From an uncultured virus (IMG/VR IMGVR_UViG_3300037166_000075) (taxonomy: Duplodnaviria; Heunggongvirae; Uroviricota; Caudoviricetes), in IMG/VR virus record IMGVR_UViG_3300037166_000075: a DNA stretch of 64,000 bases. One strand, given 5' to 3'. The position numbers and the translations under genes are program-made. The notes under the pieces are model-generated. The model was not told the origin of the DNA and did not search any database. It saw nothing but the letters and a program-made list of their open reading frames with translations. The stretch's first letter is position 1. Each line of letters opens with the position of its first letter. This document shows positions 39,002-64,000 of this stretch, in pieces.

Positions 39002-39204
39002 TTCTGCCCCTCCGCCGTGAAGATCTGACGCATCCCCGCAGCGGTAACGTCGATCTCCGCCGTGACCTGGTAGCCTTCCGGGGCGGCGGCCAGCCAACGA
39101 CGGAACGCCGCCACCATTGCGCGCCGGGCCGCGCAGAACTCGTCGTACGGACTGCTGCGGGGCACCTCTCGTATCGGAAGCGGTATTAGGTTGCTGGCGC
39201 TCAT
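38998..39204 (-). CDS. Hypothetical protein
   Basis: Coupled small ORF with GGAG RBS. Confidence 0.5.
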   Translation of the reverse strand: MSASNLIPLPIREVPRSSPYDEFCAARRAMVAAFRRWLAAAPEGYQVTAEIDVTAAGMRQIFTAEGQN

Positions 39205-39659
39205 GCCGCTTCTCCAGCGAATCGCAACGGGGCCTGTCGCCGCTGCCACTTCTTCGGGACGGCCTTGATCTCTTCCCAGACCCTGGGATGCTGGCCTTTG
39301 AAGTCGGGCAGCCGAGGTCCGGCGATGAAGCCACGGCCGGCCGGATCCGGTACCAGCCAGCGGGAGCCATCGATCCAGCGGCGGATATCGACGTCCACGG
39401 CGCGGAAATCGTCGCGGGTCAGGTAGCCGGTTTCGCCAAGCAGAATCGCCAGCCGCAGCGCCCGGATCTTCCAGTTCGTAAGCTGGATCGGCGCCGATGC
39501 CCCGGCGACGACATCCGGCACGTACTCCGGCAGCGGGCACCGCCGCGCCGGCATCATCTCGTGCCAGTCACCGTCCTGGTAGTAGAGGGCATCCGGAACC
39601 GGCAGCGACGGCGAGAACGCGGGGCCACGGACGTACTTCGGATAGGGAACTATATACAT
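39201..39659 (-). CDS. Probably N-truncated phage protein whose start is supplied by the adjacent inverted-repeat end
   Basis: LP.YVPDV.AG..AP..LT.WK..A motif; ATG lies inside the TIR-like sequence. Confidence 0.5.
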   Translation of the reverse strand: MYIVPYPKYVRGPAFSPSLPVPDALYYQDGDWHEMMPARRCPLPEYVPDVVAGASAPIQLTNWKIRALRLAILLGETGYLTRDDFRAVDVDIRRWIDGSRWLVPDPAGRGFIAGPRLPDFKGQHPRVWEEIKAVPKKWQRRQAPLRFAGEAA

Positions 39660-39666
39660 GACTCCC
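39645..39666. repeat. Orphan terminal-inverted-repeat-like sequence of the same family as the ends at 44675 and 45352
   Basis: GGGAACTATATACATGACTCCC matches each end of the mom element at 20/22. Confidence 0.8.
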
Positions 39667-39674
39667 TTTTCCAC

Positions 39675-40003
39675 TCATTTTGCAGCCGCGAACAACGGCG
39701 CATCGGTTCCAGAGACATGAGCAACCCGGCGCTCAATTCGTTGGCGTCGATGGTGCCAATCATCGGCTTGCGGGCCAATACAATCGGCTCATGCGCCGGT
39801 TTCAGCGAAGCGCGCGACTTCGGAAATCCAGTTTTGTAAATCCACTGAATTTGATCGCGTATCTCGAAGCCCGCGTCCTCAACAGCGCAAGCAAGCCGAT
39901 GGTAGGTGCGCGAGCCACCGAAGGCGACGAAGTGCCCGCCGGGTTTGAGAACGCGGAGACATTCTCGCGACCACGCCTCGCACCACTCCTGAAAGAGGTT
40001 CCC
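39675..40003 (-). pseudogene. N6/N4 DNA methyltransferase remnant, internally deleted
   Basis: ECLRVLKPGG..AFGG.RTYHR...GFEIRDQ..W.Y..GFPKS..LKPAHEPIVLARKP; no DPPY or FxGxG; out-of-frame tail RIERRVAH...APLFAAAK-stop. Confidence 0.8.
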
Positions 40004-40150
40004 GTGCAGGACCGGATCGTTGATGTGGACCCCGAGCAACGCGCGGGCGCGTTCGAGATAGCCGCCCGGGTAGGCACCGAACAGCTTCGCGCCTTCTCGC
40101 AGACGCGGGCGCGCCAGGATCCATTCATCGGAGATCGGTCGGTATGTCAT
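40004..40150 (-). pseudogene. N-terminal fragment of a phage gene fused in frame to the MTase remnant
   Basis: MTYRPI...FGAYPGGYLERAR.LL...PVLH, then an abrupt switch to MTase sequence. Confidence 0.5.
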
Positions 40151-43938: not shown

Positions 43939-43943
43939 GCCTT

Positions 43944-44066
43944 GGACACTAAGCGATGCCTAGCGGAATATCAATAGGCAAACGCTAGGTGCGACTCCGG
44001 TACGCAAAAAGGACAATCTCGCTAGGCTGTGCCTATTGACGTTTCGCTAGGCGTCGCTTAGTGTCC
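43944..44066. promoter_or_regulatory. Back-to-back sigma70-like promoters forming a 37-bp inverted repeat, with operator-like palindromes
   Basis: Leftward TTGATA-17-TAGTGT, rightward TTGACG-17-TAGTGT; arms 43944-43980 and 44030-44066 match at 33/37. Confidence 0.8.
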
Positions 44067-44094
44067 CCTCGCTCCCGCGACGAGGAGACCCCCG

Positions 44095-44293: not shown

Positions 44294-44674
44294 ATGCTCA
44301 CCGGCCTCTGCACCGCTCTTGAAGCCCAGCCGGCCCCGCCGCTGGTGGTGATCCCGCGGCCTTATCCTGAGTTCGCCGGCGACCTCGACCCGGCGAAGTT
44401 GCCGGCCACGGGGCTTCCGCGGAGCGACACCTACCAGTCGCTCGCCGCGCGCCGGGTCCGCGAGACCCGGCAATGGGTCCGCGACGCGATCTACGAAGGC
44501 CGGCACTACGAGGCCAGCGAAGAGGTCCGGCTCGCGCTACGGGCGCTCCGGTACTGGCAGCGCCGCCTCGTGCTGGCCCCCGTGCACGATGCGATGCGAG
44601 AGCAGCGGCGCCTGCAGCGTGTCGTCGATCTGGCGCGGCGCGAGACGCCGGCCGCGCTGCTGGCCGCAGAATAG
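44294..44674 (+). CDS. Hypothetical protein
   Basis: GAGG RBS; its stop codon lies in the 8-bp target duplication. Confidence 0.6.
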   Translation: MLTGLCTALEAQPAPPLVVIPRPYPEFAGDLDPAKLPATGLPRSDTYQSLAARRVRETRQWVRDAIYEGRHYEASEEVRLALRALRYWQRRLVLAPVHDAMREQRRLQRVVDLARRETPAALLAAE

Positions 44675-45352
44675 GGGAATTATATAGATGACTCCCTCTA
44701 ATCATTTCAGAATCGGTCTAGTGGCCGAAGCGTCTGAACTGGTGGAACGATTTCACTACAGCGGCCGTGTGCCTGCCAACTTGCAATGCGTTGGGACTTG
44801 GCATGCGGATGGCGGACTGTTCGGAGATCAAGGTCAAGTGATAGCCGCGTGCTTCTTTTCTATCCCGCCGACACGATGGTCCGAAGATGTCTGGGAATTA
44901 TCGCGTTTGGTGCGCCGGGATGACGCGGCGGTATCGTTGACCGGCCTGATAGCTGCGACCGTGCGTTTCCTGGCCCGTAGGAAGGCCATGGACCTGTTGG
45001 TGTCGTTCGCCGATGCCACGCATGGGCACCACGGGGCATCTACCAAGCGGCTTCATGGGCTTATGCGGGGCAGCGTGAACGGCGACAGGACGGCCTGATG
45101 ATTAACGGAGTTTTCCATCCTTGTCGATCTTGTAACTCTCGTTGGGGAACGAGTTCCCCAACGAAATTAGCCATCCGGTTGCCGGATCACACGATTGAAC
45201 CGCATTGGGATGACGGCAAGCATCTCTATTGGCGAGCATTGAATAAATCTGGTCGTGCAAAGGCTAAAAGGTTGGGCTTGGAAGCGTTGGCATATCCAAA
45301 ACCACAATGGGCAGCGTTATGAGGGAGCGAGGGAGTAATGTATATAATTCCC
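44675..45352. mobile_element. Non-autonomous IS-derived cassette (678 bp) with 22-bp TIRs and 8-bp TSD; ends resemble IS1595 family (ISNwi1-like)
   Basis: TIRs GGGAATTATATAGATGACTCCC / GGGAGTAATGTATATAATTCCC; CAGAATAG at 44667-44674 and 45353-45360; lower GC; no transposase. Confidence 0.85.
44688..45322 (+). pseudogene. Mom-like DNA-modifying GNAT-fold protein, split by a 1-nt frameshift
   Basis: FHYS, ELSRL, VSFAD..HGH.G[shift at GGGG 45033-45036]GIYQAASWAYAG...KHLY. Confidence 0.75.
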
Positions 45353-45370
45353 CAGAATAGGGAGATCGTC

Positions 45371-45847
45371 ATGGACACCAACGTCACCGACACCGTTCGG
45401 TCGGAAATCACTGACATCATGGTCGGCGCCTGCACGGCCAGCATCTATCGCACCGGCAGCGTCTACCTGCACGGCGGCAGCATTGGCGGCGGTTGCACCA
45501 TCATCGATCCCGAGCACATGGACGACGCCATCACCGCTCTGACCGCTGCGCGCGATGCCAGCGCCGACCTGAAGCCGTTGCCGGTCGCCATCGCTGAGGC
45601 CAGCAAGCTGATCGACCAGGCGAAGAAGCTGCTGCTGCCCGTTGAGCACGATCTCGGTGTCGAAGCCAGCGCCGCCGGCGATGCCGATGAGGATGTCGCC
45701 GGCGCCTACGTGGACGCCCAGACCGACATGGCCAGCGCCCTCGGTGAGCTGGGCGGCGTGCTCGACGGGCTGCGGCTGATCTCGTCCGGGATCGCCACCG
45801 CACGCCGCTACCGCGCCGAGGCGGCGAAGTCGCGCGCCGCGGCCTGA
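45371..45847 (+). CDS. Hypothetical protein
   Basis: GGAG RBS; an alternative in-frame ATG at 45338 lies inside the TIR. Confidence 0.7.
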   Translation: MDTNVTDTVRSEITDIMVGACTASIYRTGSVYLHGGSIGGGCTIIDPEHMDDAITALTAARDASADLKPLPVAIAEASKLIDQAKKLLLPVEHDLGVEASAAGDADEDVAGAYVDAQTDMASALGELGGVLDGLRLISSGIATARRYRAEAAKSRAAA

Positions 45848-52927: not shown

Positions 52928-53292
52928 TGGTCGATCGTCCCATCATCTTCAGCGCGCCCATGATCCGCGCGCTGTCTGCCGGCCGGAAAACGCAGACGCG
53001 CCGGCTGGCAATTCAGCAGGTGAGGCGCCGGGTTCGGGTTGGCGAGCCGACGGTCGTGATCGTTGAACGGCCGTCGCCATGGCAGAGGGTCAAGCCTGGG
53101 GATCGCCTGTGGGTGCGAGAGGAATGGCGGGTTGGTCGTCGCTGGGATGCGACCAAGCCACGCAATCTCCCTCCACGCGCCATGACAGTGATGTTCGATG
53201 CTGGCGGTTCCGTCGCGAATGAAGGTATTGGCAAGGGCTGGCCCAAGGGCCGGCGGCCTGAAGCGACCCGAAATTGGGAAGAGAGAACATGA
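52927..53292 (+). pseudogene. ASCH-like phage protein, apparently C-truncated
   Basis: PI.FS.PM.RA...GRKTQTRR, GDRLWVRE; the usual SIHMPR.ASR half is absent. Confidence 0.55.
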
Positions 53293-54641
53293 GAAACAGG
53301 ACTGACCCACTTGAGGCGCGCGCCCGGGAACTGGCGATGGCGGCCGGGAAGAACCCGGATGACCGTGTCACCGTTCCCGGTAAGCCGCGCGGCATGCCGA
53401 CGTGGTGCCTGTACCGCGGCGATGCCCGCGTCGAGCAGAATGCCCGCGAGCAGTCTGCACTGGCAGCGGAGAACGCCAGTCTTCGCCCGCAGGCGCCGCA
53501 ATACCAGGATGGCCCGCTTACCGTCCTCGGCGCACACGACTACGCCACCATCGAGCAGATGCGGAACTGCATGAAGGTCGGCAACGTCGTGGCCGGCGTG
53601 ATCTGTGCTGATGGCCATCTCGGCTATGCGCAGCCCGTTGGCGGCGTCGTTGCCTATGAGCGGCAGGTTTCCATCTCTGGCGTGGGATTCGACATCGGCT
53701 GCGGCAACATGGCCGTACGGCTCGACGTTCCGTTCTCGACCATCGAGGATCGGGTCGGCGCGATCATGGCCGACATTGCGCACGTCGTCTCATTCGGCAT
53801 CGGACGGCCGAACGGCGAGAGAGTCGAGCACGAGCTGCTGGACGATACCGAAGCGTGGGCGGCCTCCGGGATGGAGGAGTACCGGCCGAAGGCGGCGGCG
53901 CAGCTCGGCACGGTCGGTGGCGGCAACCACTACGTCGATCTGCTGCGCGACGAGAGCGGCCTGGTGTGGATTGGGGTCCATTTCGGCTCGCGTGGCCTCG
54001 GCCACACCACCGCGACGAAGTACTTGAAGCTGGCGGGAGGCAAGGACGGCATGAACGTTCCGCCCGCCATCGTGGACGAGGACTCCGACGTCGGGCGTGC
54101 CTACCTCGCCGCGATGAAGCTTGCCGGGCGCTACGCCTACGCCGGGCGGGAATGGGTGTGCGAGCGTGTCCGCCGGATCATTGGTGGAACCGTGACGGAT
54201 ACCGTGCACAACCACCACAACTATGCCTGGCGCGAGCGGCACGCCGATCGTGATCTCTGGGTTGTTCGCAAGGGCGCCACTCCCGCCTTCCCCGGCCAGC
54301 GTGGTTTCGTCGGTGGCTCCATGGGCGACGACGCCGTGATCCTTGAGGGCGTCGAGAGCGAGCAATCGAAGGCAGCGCTCTACTCCACGGTACACGGTGC
54401 CGGGCGCTTGTTCGGCAGGAAAGAAGCCAAGCGACGCTTCGCCCGGCCGGAGATGGACTCCTGGTTGCGCGAGCGCGGCGTCACGCTGATCGGCGGCGAT
54501 CTCGACGAAAGCCCGATGGCCTATCGCCGGCTGCCGGATGTCCTGTCGGCGTGTGCCGACAGTGTCCGGGTGCTGCATACCCTGCGCCCGGTCGGCGTGG
54601 TCATGGCCGGGGAAGGCGAATTCGACCCCTGGAAGGACTGA
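53289..54641 (+). CDS. rtcB: RtcB family RNA ligase
   Basis: D.H.G, G.DIGCG, GGGNHY, H.GSRG, HN, RKGAT, HGAGR, DE.P.AY. Confidence 0.95.
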   Translation: MRNRTDPLEARARELAMAAGKNPDDRVTVPGKPRGMPTWCLYRGDARVEQNAREQSALAAENASLRPQAPQYQDGPLTVLGAHDYATIEQMRNCMKVGNVVAGVICADGHLGYAQPVGGVVAYERQVSISGVGFDIGCGNMAVRLDVPFSTIEDRVGAIMADIAHVVSFGIGRPNGERVEHELLDDTEAWAASGMEEYRPKAAAQLGTVGGGNHYVDLLRDESGLVWIGVHFGSRGLGHTTATKYLKLAGGKDGMNVPPAIVDEDSDVGRAYLAAMKLAGRYAYAGREWVCERVRRIIGGTVTDTVHNHHNYAWRERHADRDLWVVRKGATPAFPGQRGFVGGSMGDDAVILEGVESEQSKAALYSTVHGAGRLFGRKEAKRRFARPEMDSWLRERGVTLIGGDLDESPMAYRRLPDVLSACADSVRVLHTLRPVGVVMAGEGEFDPWKD

Positions 54642-61758: not shown

Positions 61759-64000
61759 TTAATACGTGCTCAGCGCCGCGCGCTTCCAGGTGTTGGCAGC
61801 CGTGCAGGCGTAGACGTAATTGGCGTCCACGCCGACCTGCCCGGCCGTGCAGGTCGCATTGTCAGCAGGAGTGCCTGGCGTGACGCGCAGGGTATCGGCG
61901 GACACGCCTCCGGTCAGAGCCACGCCACCGCTGGTGAGATTGATGGCGCCAGTGCCCGCCGATATGGACATGGACGTGTTGAGTATCGCCGTCCCCGTCG
62001 CGGTCACATAGCCGGACCCGAACGTGACCGACGGCGCCGTCGTGTAGCCAGAGCCGGCGGCCGTGATCTGCGTCGTCGCGATGGACATGCCGATACCGCT
62101 GGCGGACCCGAGCGTGGGCGGCGTAGTGCAGGTGCCGCCCGTCAGCAGCGCCGGCTGCGCGGGAACGACCGTATAGTCGATGTCGCCGAAGGTCGGTCCG
62201 AACGTCGCGACCGTTCCCCCAGTCCCGATCGTCAACACCTTGAGCCGCTGCGGATTTGAACCGATGTACCGGCCACCCTGAACAGAAAGGATGTCATTCA
62301 CCGAGCATCCCGCGCCTAACGACAGAAGATTTGTCGTATTATAAGGCCCGGCAATGAAGACGCTCGTGGTAACGGCCGTTGCCTGTGTCCCGCCAACCGG
62401 GGGCGCACCTAGTGTAATCGACGGAAGGGCTGCCGAGCCGAATGGATAGAAGTATTCTCCACCGCTGTTCGTGAGATTGATGCTTCCGACGCTGCCGGTG
62501 CTGTTTATTGTCCCCACCGTAAGAACAGGCGGCGGGCTCCACGTTGGCGTAGCCTCGTAGCTCTGCCAGCCCGCGCCGAGGTTCACTTCGCCGGTGAACT
62601 CGGCGCTGGTCAGGTTCCAGTTGTTGGCATCGGGAAGCGAGAAATGTCCATCCACGGTCCAAGGGATGGCGGGGTTGAACATGGTCGCGCCAACAGTATC
62701 GACGCCGATCCAGACATTCGCGTCCGTTACCGTGGCGGAGGTGATCCCCGCGTCGCTGCTGAACACGCTGCCCGTCGCGTAGCTGTGCTGCGTCGCGAGC
62801 GTGAACTTCTGCAACAACGGGGTCGGGTTCGTCCCGGTCAGAAAAACCAGGTCCGTGAGGGGCGGCGTTTCTTCGTAGCCGAGGTCCAGGTCATACACGC
62901 GCGAGTTCGGGACCTCGTAGACCGTTACCCCGTGCCTATTCGGCGCGACCGGCAGGAAGTTGATCGATGCACCCTGGGCAACCCCGCTTCCCGTCACCGC
63001 CTGCGAGAGCGTGAGCGAGGCGCTGTTGATGATCGACGCGATGGTTGTGCCGGCCGGAATATTGGTGCCGGTCACGGCGAGGCCAGTGAGCAACGTCGAT
63101 GTCGGCACCGAGAGGGTCGTCCCGGAAGCCGTTGCCGCGGTCGTGGCCAGCGACGTGCCGGCCTGGGAGTTGCCCATGTAGGTATCGCCCCGGCCGTAGT
63201 GGTGCCGGGCGGCGGGGGCCGATTCCCACAATGGCGAACCGCCGCCGCTGGTTTCCAGGGCGCAGTTCGTGCAGGAAAACTCGTTGAAGCTCGTCGTGCT
63301 GCCGTTGTAGTTGACGACCGTCTGGAACGCGCTGGAAATATTCCAGTGATCCAGCCCGTCCTGGATTAGCGCGTACGCGGTGGGAGAGAGGTATCCATTG
63401 CTGGAAAATACCTTGGTGAACTCCGTTCCTTCGGCGGCGCCGTTGTAGATTGCGCCGTTCACGAAATTCCCGCTCACCGCGACGCTATCGAAGTGGTGCA
63501 GGTCCGCGGCGAGTCCCGACGAAATCCGGCCGAACTGAATGCCGTAAAGCGGCGTCGCCGCCGTATCCCCGTAAACCGAGAAGTCCTTCAGGTGCAGGAA
63601 CCGGGAACCGAGGGCGTCGATCACCGGGAACGGCGAGAAGCCGACCGTCGCGCCCTGGGCGACGCCTGCCCCGGTGACCGGCTGCGAGAGCGTGAGCGAC
63701 GTGCTGTTGATGATCGACGCGATCGCCGATCCCGCGACGATGTTCGCCCCGGATACCGGCATTCCCACCGCCAGCCCCGTCGTCGGGATGGCGAGCGTCG
63801 TGCCCGTCGTCGTGGCGGCCGTGGTGGCGAGCGATGTGGCCGCCGGAGACTTCCCCCAGATCGACGCGCCCGCGCCGTCGATCATGAAAAGCTGAGACTG
63901 AAAGCCCGTCCAGTTGATGCTGGATTTGACGACGGCATGGCACCCGGCCAGCGTCATCGACACCGCGCGCTGGTTGCCGGTGGTCGCAAGCTGCGTGCGC
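61759..64000 (-). CDS. Tail spike/depolymerase-like protein (5' partial)
   Basis: Frame open to the window end; beta-helix-like region; duplicated ~67-aa module; GSGYTTAPSVT; C-terminal C...YACTAANTWKR. Confidence 0.7.
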   Translation of the reverse strand, partial: RTQLATTGNQRAVSMTLAGCHAVVKSSINWTGFQSQLFMIDGAGASIWGKSPAATSLATTAATTTGTTLAIPTTGLAVGMPVSGANIVAGSAIASIINSTSLTLSQPVTGAGVAQGATVGFSPFPVIDALGSRFLHLKDFSVYGDTAATPLYGIQFGRISSGLAADLHHFDSVAVSGNFVNGAIYNGAAEGTEFTKVFSSNGYLSPTAYALIQDGLDHWNISSAFQTVVNYNGSTTSFNEFSCTNCALETSGGGSPLWESAPAARHHYGRGDTYMGNSQAGTSLATTAATASGTTLSVPTSTLLTGLAVTGTNIPAGTTIASIINSASLTLSQAVTGSGVAQGASINFLPVAPNRHGVTVYEVPNSRVYDLDLGYEETPPLTDLVFLTGTNPTPLLQKFTLATQHSYATGSVFSSDAGITSATVTDANVWIGVDTVGATMFNPAIPWTVDGHFSLPDANNWNLTSAEFTGEVNLGAGWQSYEATPTWSPPPVLTVGTINSTGSVGSINLTNSGGEYFYPFGSAALPSITLGAPPVGGTQATAVTTSVFIAGPYNTTNLLSLGAGCSVNDILSVQGGRYIGSNPQRLKVLTIGTGGTVATFGPTFGDIDYTVVPAQPALLTGGTCTTPPTLGSASGIGMSIATTQITAAGSGYTTAPSVTFGSGYVTATGTAILNTSMSISAGTGAINLTSGGVALTGGVSADTLRVTPGTPADNATCTAGQVGVDANYVYACTAANTWKRAALSTY

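What the first reader, a model, noticed from the sequence alone, without database searches (positions are those of the whole stretch)
44667..45360. Transposase-less mobile cassette delivering a mom-like DNA modification gene
Seen: 678 bp bounded by 22-bp inverted repeats (20/22 match) and a perfect 8-bp direct repeat CAGAATAG. Removing it restores a clean junction, GCA GAA TAG-GGAGA-tcgtc-ATG (stop, RBS, start). Its only content is a mom-like gene. Known (from memory): IS1595-family elements make 8-bp TSDs, the ISNwi1 group ends resemble ggnnatTAT, and they can carry passenger genes; Mu Mom modifies adenine and blocks restriction. Inference: a minimal anti-restriction cassette mobilised in trans.
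Basis: partly seen in the sequence, partly recalled or inferred. Interest (0 to 1): 0.8.

Follow-up and report, generated by a model that had tools for sequence, protein, structure and literature searches.

The report
Transposase-less phage cassette with broken mom
A small jumping-gene cassette with no transposase of its own has dropped a DNA-shielding enzyme gene (mom, related to that of phage Mu) between two genes of a peat-associated phage; this copy is broken, but two other cassettes, one with a different type of end, carry unbroken mom genes.

Summary
Window 44675-45352 (678 bp, 54% GC against 68-70% flanks) has 22/24 terminal inverted repeats and an exact 8-bp duplication. It sits between a stop codon and the next gene's ribosome site in a circular ~62-kb phage. 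The same ends bound 96 closed elements in the viral and bacterial contigs fetched: 71 with an exact 8-bp duplication, 54 with a full IS1595 transposase, 35 with none. So this is a non-autonomous IS1595 cassette. The cargo is a Mom-family gene that starts at an ATG inside the left repeat, but it is frameshifted at 45033-36 in every copy seen, and the product lacks the C-terminal ~95 residues. 'Delivering anti-restriction' is therefore past, not present. No empty site and no cognate transposase in the nearest genome were found, so movement in trans is inferred. New here: Mom was captured independently at least three times, by two IS1595 end types. Among viral elements, cargo is enriched for DNA-modifying genes (11/60 against 3/150 neighbours), and in transposase-less elements it runs with the host operon (25/25). 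The kind is known (MIC/tIS); this phage clade was not found in nine literature searches.

The parts
44667..44674 (.). Left copy of the 8-bp target duplication; contains the stop codon of the upstream phage gene
   Evidence: fits 3 of the 4 strongly A/T positions of the family target pattern NWWNNWWN
44675..44698 (+). Left terminal inverted repeat, of the type that lies downstream of the transposase in autonomous relatives; holds GGGA and the ATG (44688) that starts the cargo
   Evidence: end type from 50 autonomous elements
44688..45035 (+). mom, 5' part (116 codons homologous to Mom; the frame runs on out of register to a stop at 45098)
   Evidence: PF25680 positions 10-118; 87% to P0001
45033..45036 (+). 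Frameshift: run of four G, one base short relative to intact homologues (HHGG[IV]YQ in 115 of 120)
   Evidence: identical in G001, three viral records and two metagenome records; no indel in contigs of 4 runs
45035..45322 (+). mom, 3' part (95 codons; Tyr159 equivalent, insertion region, basic C-terminus ending YPK), not reached in frame
   Evidence: PF25680 positions 120-202
45329..45352 (-). Right terminal inverted repeat, of the type that lies upstream of the transposase in autonomous relatives; its outward ATG (45338) happens to be in frame with the next gene
   Evidence: frame
45353..45360 (.). Right copy of the 8-bp target duplication
44294..44674 (+). Upstream phage gene (126 aa, unknown), left intact
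45371..45847 (+). Downstream phage gene (158 aa, unknown), with its own GGAGA site, left intact
39645..39668 (+). Third copy of the same end: the surviving end of a second, decayed element
   Evidence: 3 mismatches in 24; no partner end or duplication found
39653..40003 (-). Internally deleted N6/N4 DNA methyltransferase remnant, cargo of the second element, fused to the 5' part of a phage gene (40004-40150)
   Evidence: PF01555 E 2e-15

Best explanation
A non-autonomous IS1595-family cassette. Shown: IS1595 ends, an 8-bp duplication, a single Mom-family gene filling the space from an ATG inside one end to a stop 6 nt from the other, and a fixed frameshift. Inferred: an element of this clade captured an ordinary phage mom gene; the compact unit was moved by a cognate transposase from another element (co-infecting phage or host) into an A/T-rich 8-mer at a stop/ribosome-site junction; it was kept because it lay in the direction of the operon, borrowing its transcription and using the GGGA..ATG of the repeat. 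There it would have made a Mom-like GNAT enzyme that modifies adenine (in Mu, with glycyl-tRNA as donor) and blocks host restriction. The gene then broke, by drift or because Mom made from an early operon is costly. Today it is a stranded, inactive cassette.
For: Same ends on 96 closed elements; exact 8-bp duplication in 71 of 96; full transposase in 54, partial in 7, none in 35; IS1595 domains. Clean loss predominates: only 3 of 35 transposase-less elements keep the small basic ORF found in 46 of 61 with transposase, and ours has no trace of either. Cargo runs with both flanking genes in 25 of 25 informative transposase-less elements (8 of 33 uninformative) against 24 of 36 for transposase genes (23 of 59 uninformative), Fisher p 8e-4. 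Methyltransferase/Mom genes are 11 of 60 cargo genes in viral elements against 3 of 150 neighbouring genes, p 9e-5. Cargo starts at the repeat's ATG in 14 of 35. Mom relatives are normally free phage genes: of 149 distinct loci only this one has these ends. Mom identity.
Against: No empty site found. No transposase-less element was seen at two different sites: the two duplicated ones share their target, whereas one autonomous element occurs at two. No cognate transposase in the phage or in G001, which is 80% complete. Arg151 of Mu Mom, reported essential, is Thr in this clade even in intact relatives, so the chemistry may differ. Half of the viral transposase-less cassettes (8 of 16) carry no recognised methyltransferase or Mom. 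Gene calls came from my own simple caller, and the 11 include this element itself.
Confidence: 0.6

Rival explanations
1. It arrived as an autonomous passenger-carrying IS (tIS) and lost its transposase by deletion in place; the 678-bp unit never moved as such.
For: A deletion in place keeps the duplication, so the duplication cannot tell the two apart. Seven of 96 elements have partial transposases, and L164 has a transposase scrap with cargo reading inward from the opposite end. The second element in this phage (39645) has decayed in place. No second site for the cassette.
Against: Traceless loss (35) far outnumbers partial loss (7), and 32 of 35 also lack the small basic ORF; mom is flush with both ends; none of 149 Mom loci showed mom inside an element with these ends and a transposase.
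Confidence: 0.28
2. Neutral hitch-hiking: the ends pick up whatever small phage genes lie near, and mom was never useful here.
For: This copy is broken, as is the methyltransferase cargo at 39653; many cargos are small unknown ORFs.
Against: Nine-fold enrichment of DNA-modifying cargo over neighbours and 25 of 25 co-orientation point to selection for expressed cargo across the family; L052 and L309 Mom frames are unbroken.
Confidence: 0.08
3. The gene is still active through ribosomal or transcriptional slippage at the G run, or the break is an assembly error.
For: The break lies in a homopolymer; the rest is nearly intact (87% to P0001; one notable Gly-to-Cys change where 97 of 120 have Pro-Gly). 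Low output would suit a toxic enzyme. Contigs hide rare variants, and all 20 holding runs are flagged as possible sources.
Against: Only four G and no X-XXY-YYZ heptamer (sequence; slippery-site rule recalled); identical in every record and in contigs of 4 runs from 4 studies.
Confidence: 0.04

Closest known systems
IS1595-family transporter IS (tIS), e.g. MTnSag1/tISSag10 and tISCpe8 (PMC5704250, passages read)
   Same: IS1595 DDE family, ~25-bp terminal repeats, 8-bp duplication, AT-rich targets, passenger gene
   Different: Those encode their transposase and carry lincosamide resistance in Firmicutes; this has no transposase, lies in a phage and carries mom. The cognate transposase had no match at 60% or more in 72,556 plasmids or 50,697 phages (best-ranked hits 43-47% and 37%).
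Mobile insertion cassettes (MIC; concept as summarised in PMC3129680, passages read; MIC231 itself recalled)
   Same: IS ends around a non-transposase gene, moved by a cognate transposase in trans
   Different: MIC231 derives from IS231 in Bacillus (title in that paper's references); here IS1595 ends and phage cargo; trans-mobilisation not shown here
Transposon-like restriction-modification and orphan-methylase units (Furuta 2010, PMC2853133, passages read)
   Same: DNA-modification genes alone between imperfect inverted repeats, inserted with an 8-bp duplication, no transposase
   Different: Chromosomal RM genes, transposase not identified there; here the ends tie to an IS1595 clade, the host is a phage and the cargo is a hypermodifying Mom
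Phage Mu Mom (PMC7261163, Introduction and passages; PMC13219725, abstract, sections 13-14 and passages)
   Same: PF25680, GNAT fold (top Foldseek hit 8BV8, E 7e-10, for intact relative P0001), His58, Tyr59, Arg111, Asp149, Tyr159 equivalents
   Different: ~25% identity; Ser124 is Thr and Arg151 is Thr; no com translational activator inside the cassette; placed in a small-gene operon next to a Cro-like gene rather than in a late operon; frameshifted

Membership tests
IS1595 family | DDE transposase with zinc ribbon (PF12762 + PF12760) | tested here: not met
   Absent from the element and the phage; present in autonomous elements with the same ends. So a non-autonomous derivative, not an IS.
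IS1595 family | ~25-bp imperfect terminal inverted repeats | tested here: met
   22 of 24; 22-bp core conserved across 267 distinct ends
IS1595 family | 8-bp target duplication, AT-rich | tested here: met
   Exact here; 71 of 96 relatives; 76% AT in the 8 outer bases against 42% further out
IS1595 subgroup ISNwi1 | Ends ggnnatTAT and DDEK-type motif (both recalled, not read) | tested here: inconclusive
   Ends read GGGAATTAT and cognate transposases show E.DE / TDE / N..E..[WF]...KR, which fit the recalled pattern; no ISfinder comparison was possible
Mobile insertion cassette (MIC) | IS ends enclosing only a passenger gene | tested here: met
Mobile insertion cassette (MIC) | Mobilised in trans by a cognate transposase | tested here: inconclusive
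   No empty site, no second site, no cognate transposase in G001; needs experiment
Mom family | PF25680 / Mom fold | tested here: met
   5' piece above the curated cut-off (39.1 vs 27.1), 3' piece 23.3; hhalign 91% to Mu Mom; Foldseek (model of relative P0001)
Mom family | Active-site residues H58, Y59, R111, S124, D149, R151, Y159 of Mu Mom | tested here: inconclusive
   H, Y, R, D present, S is T, R151 is T across the clade, Y159 lies beyond the break (numbering offset of 10 between the two papers inferred)
Mom family | Intact frame including the essential insertion and C-terminus | tested here: not met
   Frameshift at 45033-36; deletion of the insertion abolishes Mu Mom activity
Mom family | tRNA-Gly-dependent formation of 6-NcmdA | not testable with these tools
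   biochemical

The most novel reading that the evidence does not exclude
In uncultured soil, peat and water phages, IS1595 ends work as a gene-capture shuttle: they excise single phage accessory genes, supply ribosome site and start codon from the repeat itself, and drop them into operons of unrelated phages. Counter-defence genes (methyltransferases, Mom, PAPS-reductase-like and QueD-like genes, Lar) are preferentially kept. Mom has been packaged this way at least three times by two end types, and its break here was selected because Mom is toxic outside a late operon.
Probability: 0.3. Interest if true: 0.7.

Novelty: new variant of a known kind. Interest (0 to 1): 0.45.

Why it matters
Phages are thought to gain accessory genes mostly by recombination; a family of one-gene transposable cassettes enriched for DNA-shielding enzymes would be a distinct route for spreading restriction evasion across hosts (ends found in Acidobacteriota, Alphaproteobacteria and others). 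The conserved ends are a handle for mining counter-defence genes among the many unknown cargos. The unbroken cassette-borne Mom genes (L309, L052) and the Thr-for-Arg151 clade are candidates for new adenine chemistry. This particular copy is inactive, which limits its own importance.

Tried and rejected
Empty site: both flanking proteins matched only 3 viral records, all carrying the cassette; no true relative in 351 genomes of the family of G001 besides G001 (one E 8e-4 hit set aside); no joint in contigs of 4 runs (contigs show presence, not absence). Autonomous partner in the host: five IS1595 genes in G001, none with these ends; ends in 3 of 351 family genomes. 'Restart codon' idea (outward ATG in frame with the next gene, true at both elements of this phage): not enriched family-wide, frame 0 open for >=80 codons in 17 of 84 ends against 13 and 12 in other frames, with the same slight excess in ends without ATG (28 of 173 vs 24, 25); rejected as a general feature. 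Strictly phage-confined family: rejected; many genome-contig copies lie among housekeeping genes. Transposon-borne Mom clade: rejected. The AU test for one clade of cassette Moms did not finish; the claim of independent captures rests on starred branches forcing at least 3 changes, and L052 and L050 are long branches. Promoter scan found nothing on the + strand. Sequence search of PDB gave Mu Mom only at E 0.14. No earlier scan note by sequence or place.

Full report
Observation. The insert is as described: 44675-45352, 678 bp, ends matching at 22 of 24, exact CAGAATAG at 44667-74 and 45353-60, GC 0.54 against 0.70 and 0.68. It lies between the stop of a 126-aa gene and the GGAGA site of a 158-aa gene, both left whole. 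The window is a circular phage genome: base 1 recurs at 61,955, the matching contig of nearest genome G001 is 61,912 bp, and terminase, portal, sheath, tape measure and endolysin are present. No integrase appeared among the 52 window frames scanned in that call (80 genes were called). No IS1595 transposase lies in it.

The ends. After removing repeats, 96 elements had both ends (45 viral, 51 genomic; 91 clusters at 95%; this element is one of them). Of the 96, 71 have an exact 8-bp duplication, 54 a full transposase, 7 a partial one and 35 none. The transposases are IS1595 (PF12762, PF12760). None reaches 60% identity to anything in the plasmid or cultured-phage collections. Targets are A/T-rich, pattern NWWNNWWN; about 1% of 8-mers in this GC-rich phage fit, which may by itself steer insertions to gene junctions (inference). 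Our left end is of the type found downstream of the transposase and the right end of the upstream type. Many genomic copies sit among housekeeping genes, so the family is not confined to phages.

The cargo. Two frames hit Mom. Intact relatives of 204-420 aa exist, up to 87% identical; 115 of 120 read HHGG[IV]YQ where the window is one base short in a run of four G at 45033-36. The break is identical in G001, three viral and two metagenome records and in contigs of four runs, though these may share a source. A model of relative P0001 (pLDDT 91.7) finds Mu Mom 8BV8 first. By alignment to Mu Mom, His58, Tyr59, Arg111 and Asp149 lie before the break; Tyr159, the insertion and the basic C-terminus lie after it. 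PMC13219725 (sections 13-14 read) reports that Mom transfers glycine from Gly-tRNA to adenine N6, that deleting the insertion abolishes activity, and that Arg151 is essential. Arg151 is Thr throughout this clade. So this copy is inactive as it stands, and even intact relatives may do different chemistry. PMC7261163 (Introduction) states that Mom overexpression is lethal and that Mu confines it to late infection; here it lies in a small-gene operon beside a Cro-like gene, which makes selected inactivation plausible but untested.

Capture. Of 149 distinct Mom loci (111 with at least 300 nt on both sides) only this one has these ends; the closest locus with context, L150, is a plain phage gene. 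The end search found a second cassette with the same ends and a distant, unbroken Mom (L052, 628 bp, 8-bp duplication) and a Mom beside a single end (L050). The Mom search found a third cassette, L309 (927 bp, 22/22 ends of another sequence, 8-bp duplication, unbroken 225-aa Mom), whose ends are shared with IS1595 elements only 33% identical in transposase. On a tree the four are scattered; starred branches force at least three changes, two rows are long branches and the AU test did not finish.

Family pattern. In viral elements 11 of 60 cargo genes are methyltransferases or Mom (this element included) against 3 of 150 neighbouring genes (150 of 163 sent), p 9e-5; in transposase-less ones 8 of 22. 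Other cargo: PAPS-reductase-like, QueD-like, Lar, many unknowns. Cargo runs with both flanking genes in 25 of 25 informative transposase-less elements (4 duplicates dropped overall, 8 uninformative) against 24 of 36 transposase genes. In 14 of 35 it starts at the ATG inside the repeat, as here. These counts use my own simple gene caller. An outward restart codon is not enriched. This phage holds a second, decayed element: an end at 39645 with an internally deleted methyltransferase, its other end lost.

What is not shown. No empty allele, no second site for any transposase-less element, no cognate transposase in G001 (29-34%). Loss of the transposase in place stays open at about 0.3; against it, traceless loss outnumbers partial loss 35 to 7 and 32 of 35 also lack the small basic ORF typical of autonomous copies.

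Comparison. The kind is known: MICs and transporter IS (PMC3129680, PMC9330008, passages), IS1595 tIS with 25-bp ends and 8-bp duplications (PMC5704250, passages), and transposase-free methylase units with 8-bp duplications (PMC2853133, passages). Siguier 2009 was seen only as a reference; the subgroup names ISNwi1 and ISSod11 are recalled. Nine searches (listings seen) showed no paper on IS1595 cassettes in phages or on mom as a transposon passenger; subscription journals and ISfinder were not searchable. Earlier notes of this scan describe the family at least 11 times with methyltransferase or dpdA cargo, none with mom; they are leads, not support.

Verdict. A real, non-autonomous IS1595 cassette with a broken mom gene; a new variant of a known kind. 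The family-level signal is the interesting part; this copy adds Mom as a repeatedly captured cargo. Interest 0.45.

Noticed in passing
window 39204-40150: Second, decayed element: one end at 39645 inside a ~260-aa phage gene (only its last 147 codons remain; relatives 259-359 aa), a methyltransferase remnant, and loss of the other end together with host DNA.
   Followed up: partly
L309:2375-3301 (same as L402): Transposase-less cassette with ends of a second IS1595 clade carrying an unbroken 225-aa Mom; relatives L398, L399, L404, L405 are longer elements with the same ends (transposase confirmed in L399, L405), L400 is a 643-bp cassette.
   Followed up: partly
e.g. L188:3853-3987, L203:3108-3236: A 41-57-aa basic ORF (motif LD.I.D.VL.YRPK, lysine-rich tail) follows the transposase in most autonomous elements (46 of 61 by motif); no Pfam or PHROG hit in the examples scanned. 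Possible regulator or targeting factor.
   Followed up: partly
window 43943-44067: Long dyad in the divergent control region between the Cro-like gene and the operon that holds the cassette; there is no room for a CI-type gene between them, and no integrase was seen in this circular phage.
   Followed up: no
window 53289-54641: The phage encodes an RtcB RNA ligase (PF01139, E 4e-66), a possible counter to tRNA-cleaving defences.
   Followed up: no
L018, L166, L177, L203, L415; L022; L079, L092; L192: Other cargo or end-adjacent genes with the same ends: PAPS-reductase-like proteins, a QueD/PTPS-like frame, Lar restriction alleviation, and a Beta protein (PF14350).
   Followed up: no
L414:1501-1931 (G240): 431-bp transposase-less cassette with the same ends and a DUF6572 gene, in a chromosome of the family of G001 beside ATP-synthase-like genes.
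   Followed up: no
both ends, window 44675-44686 and 45341-45352: Each end carries an outward-facing TATAAT four bases from its tip, and the commonest upstream-type end in the family has an inward TTGACT; possible promoter halves, not tested.
   Followed up: no
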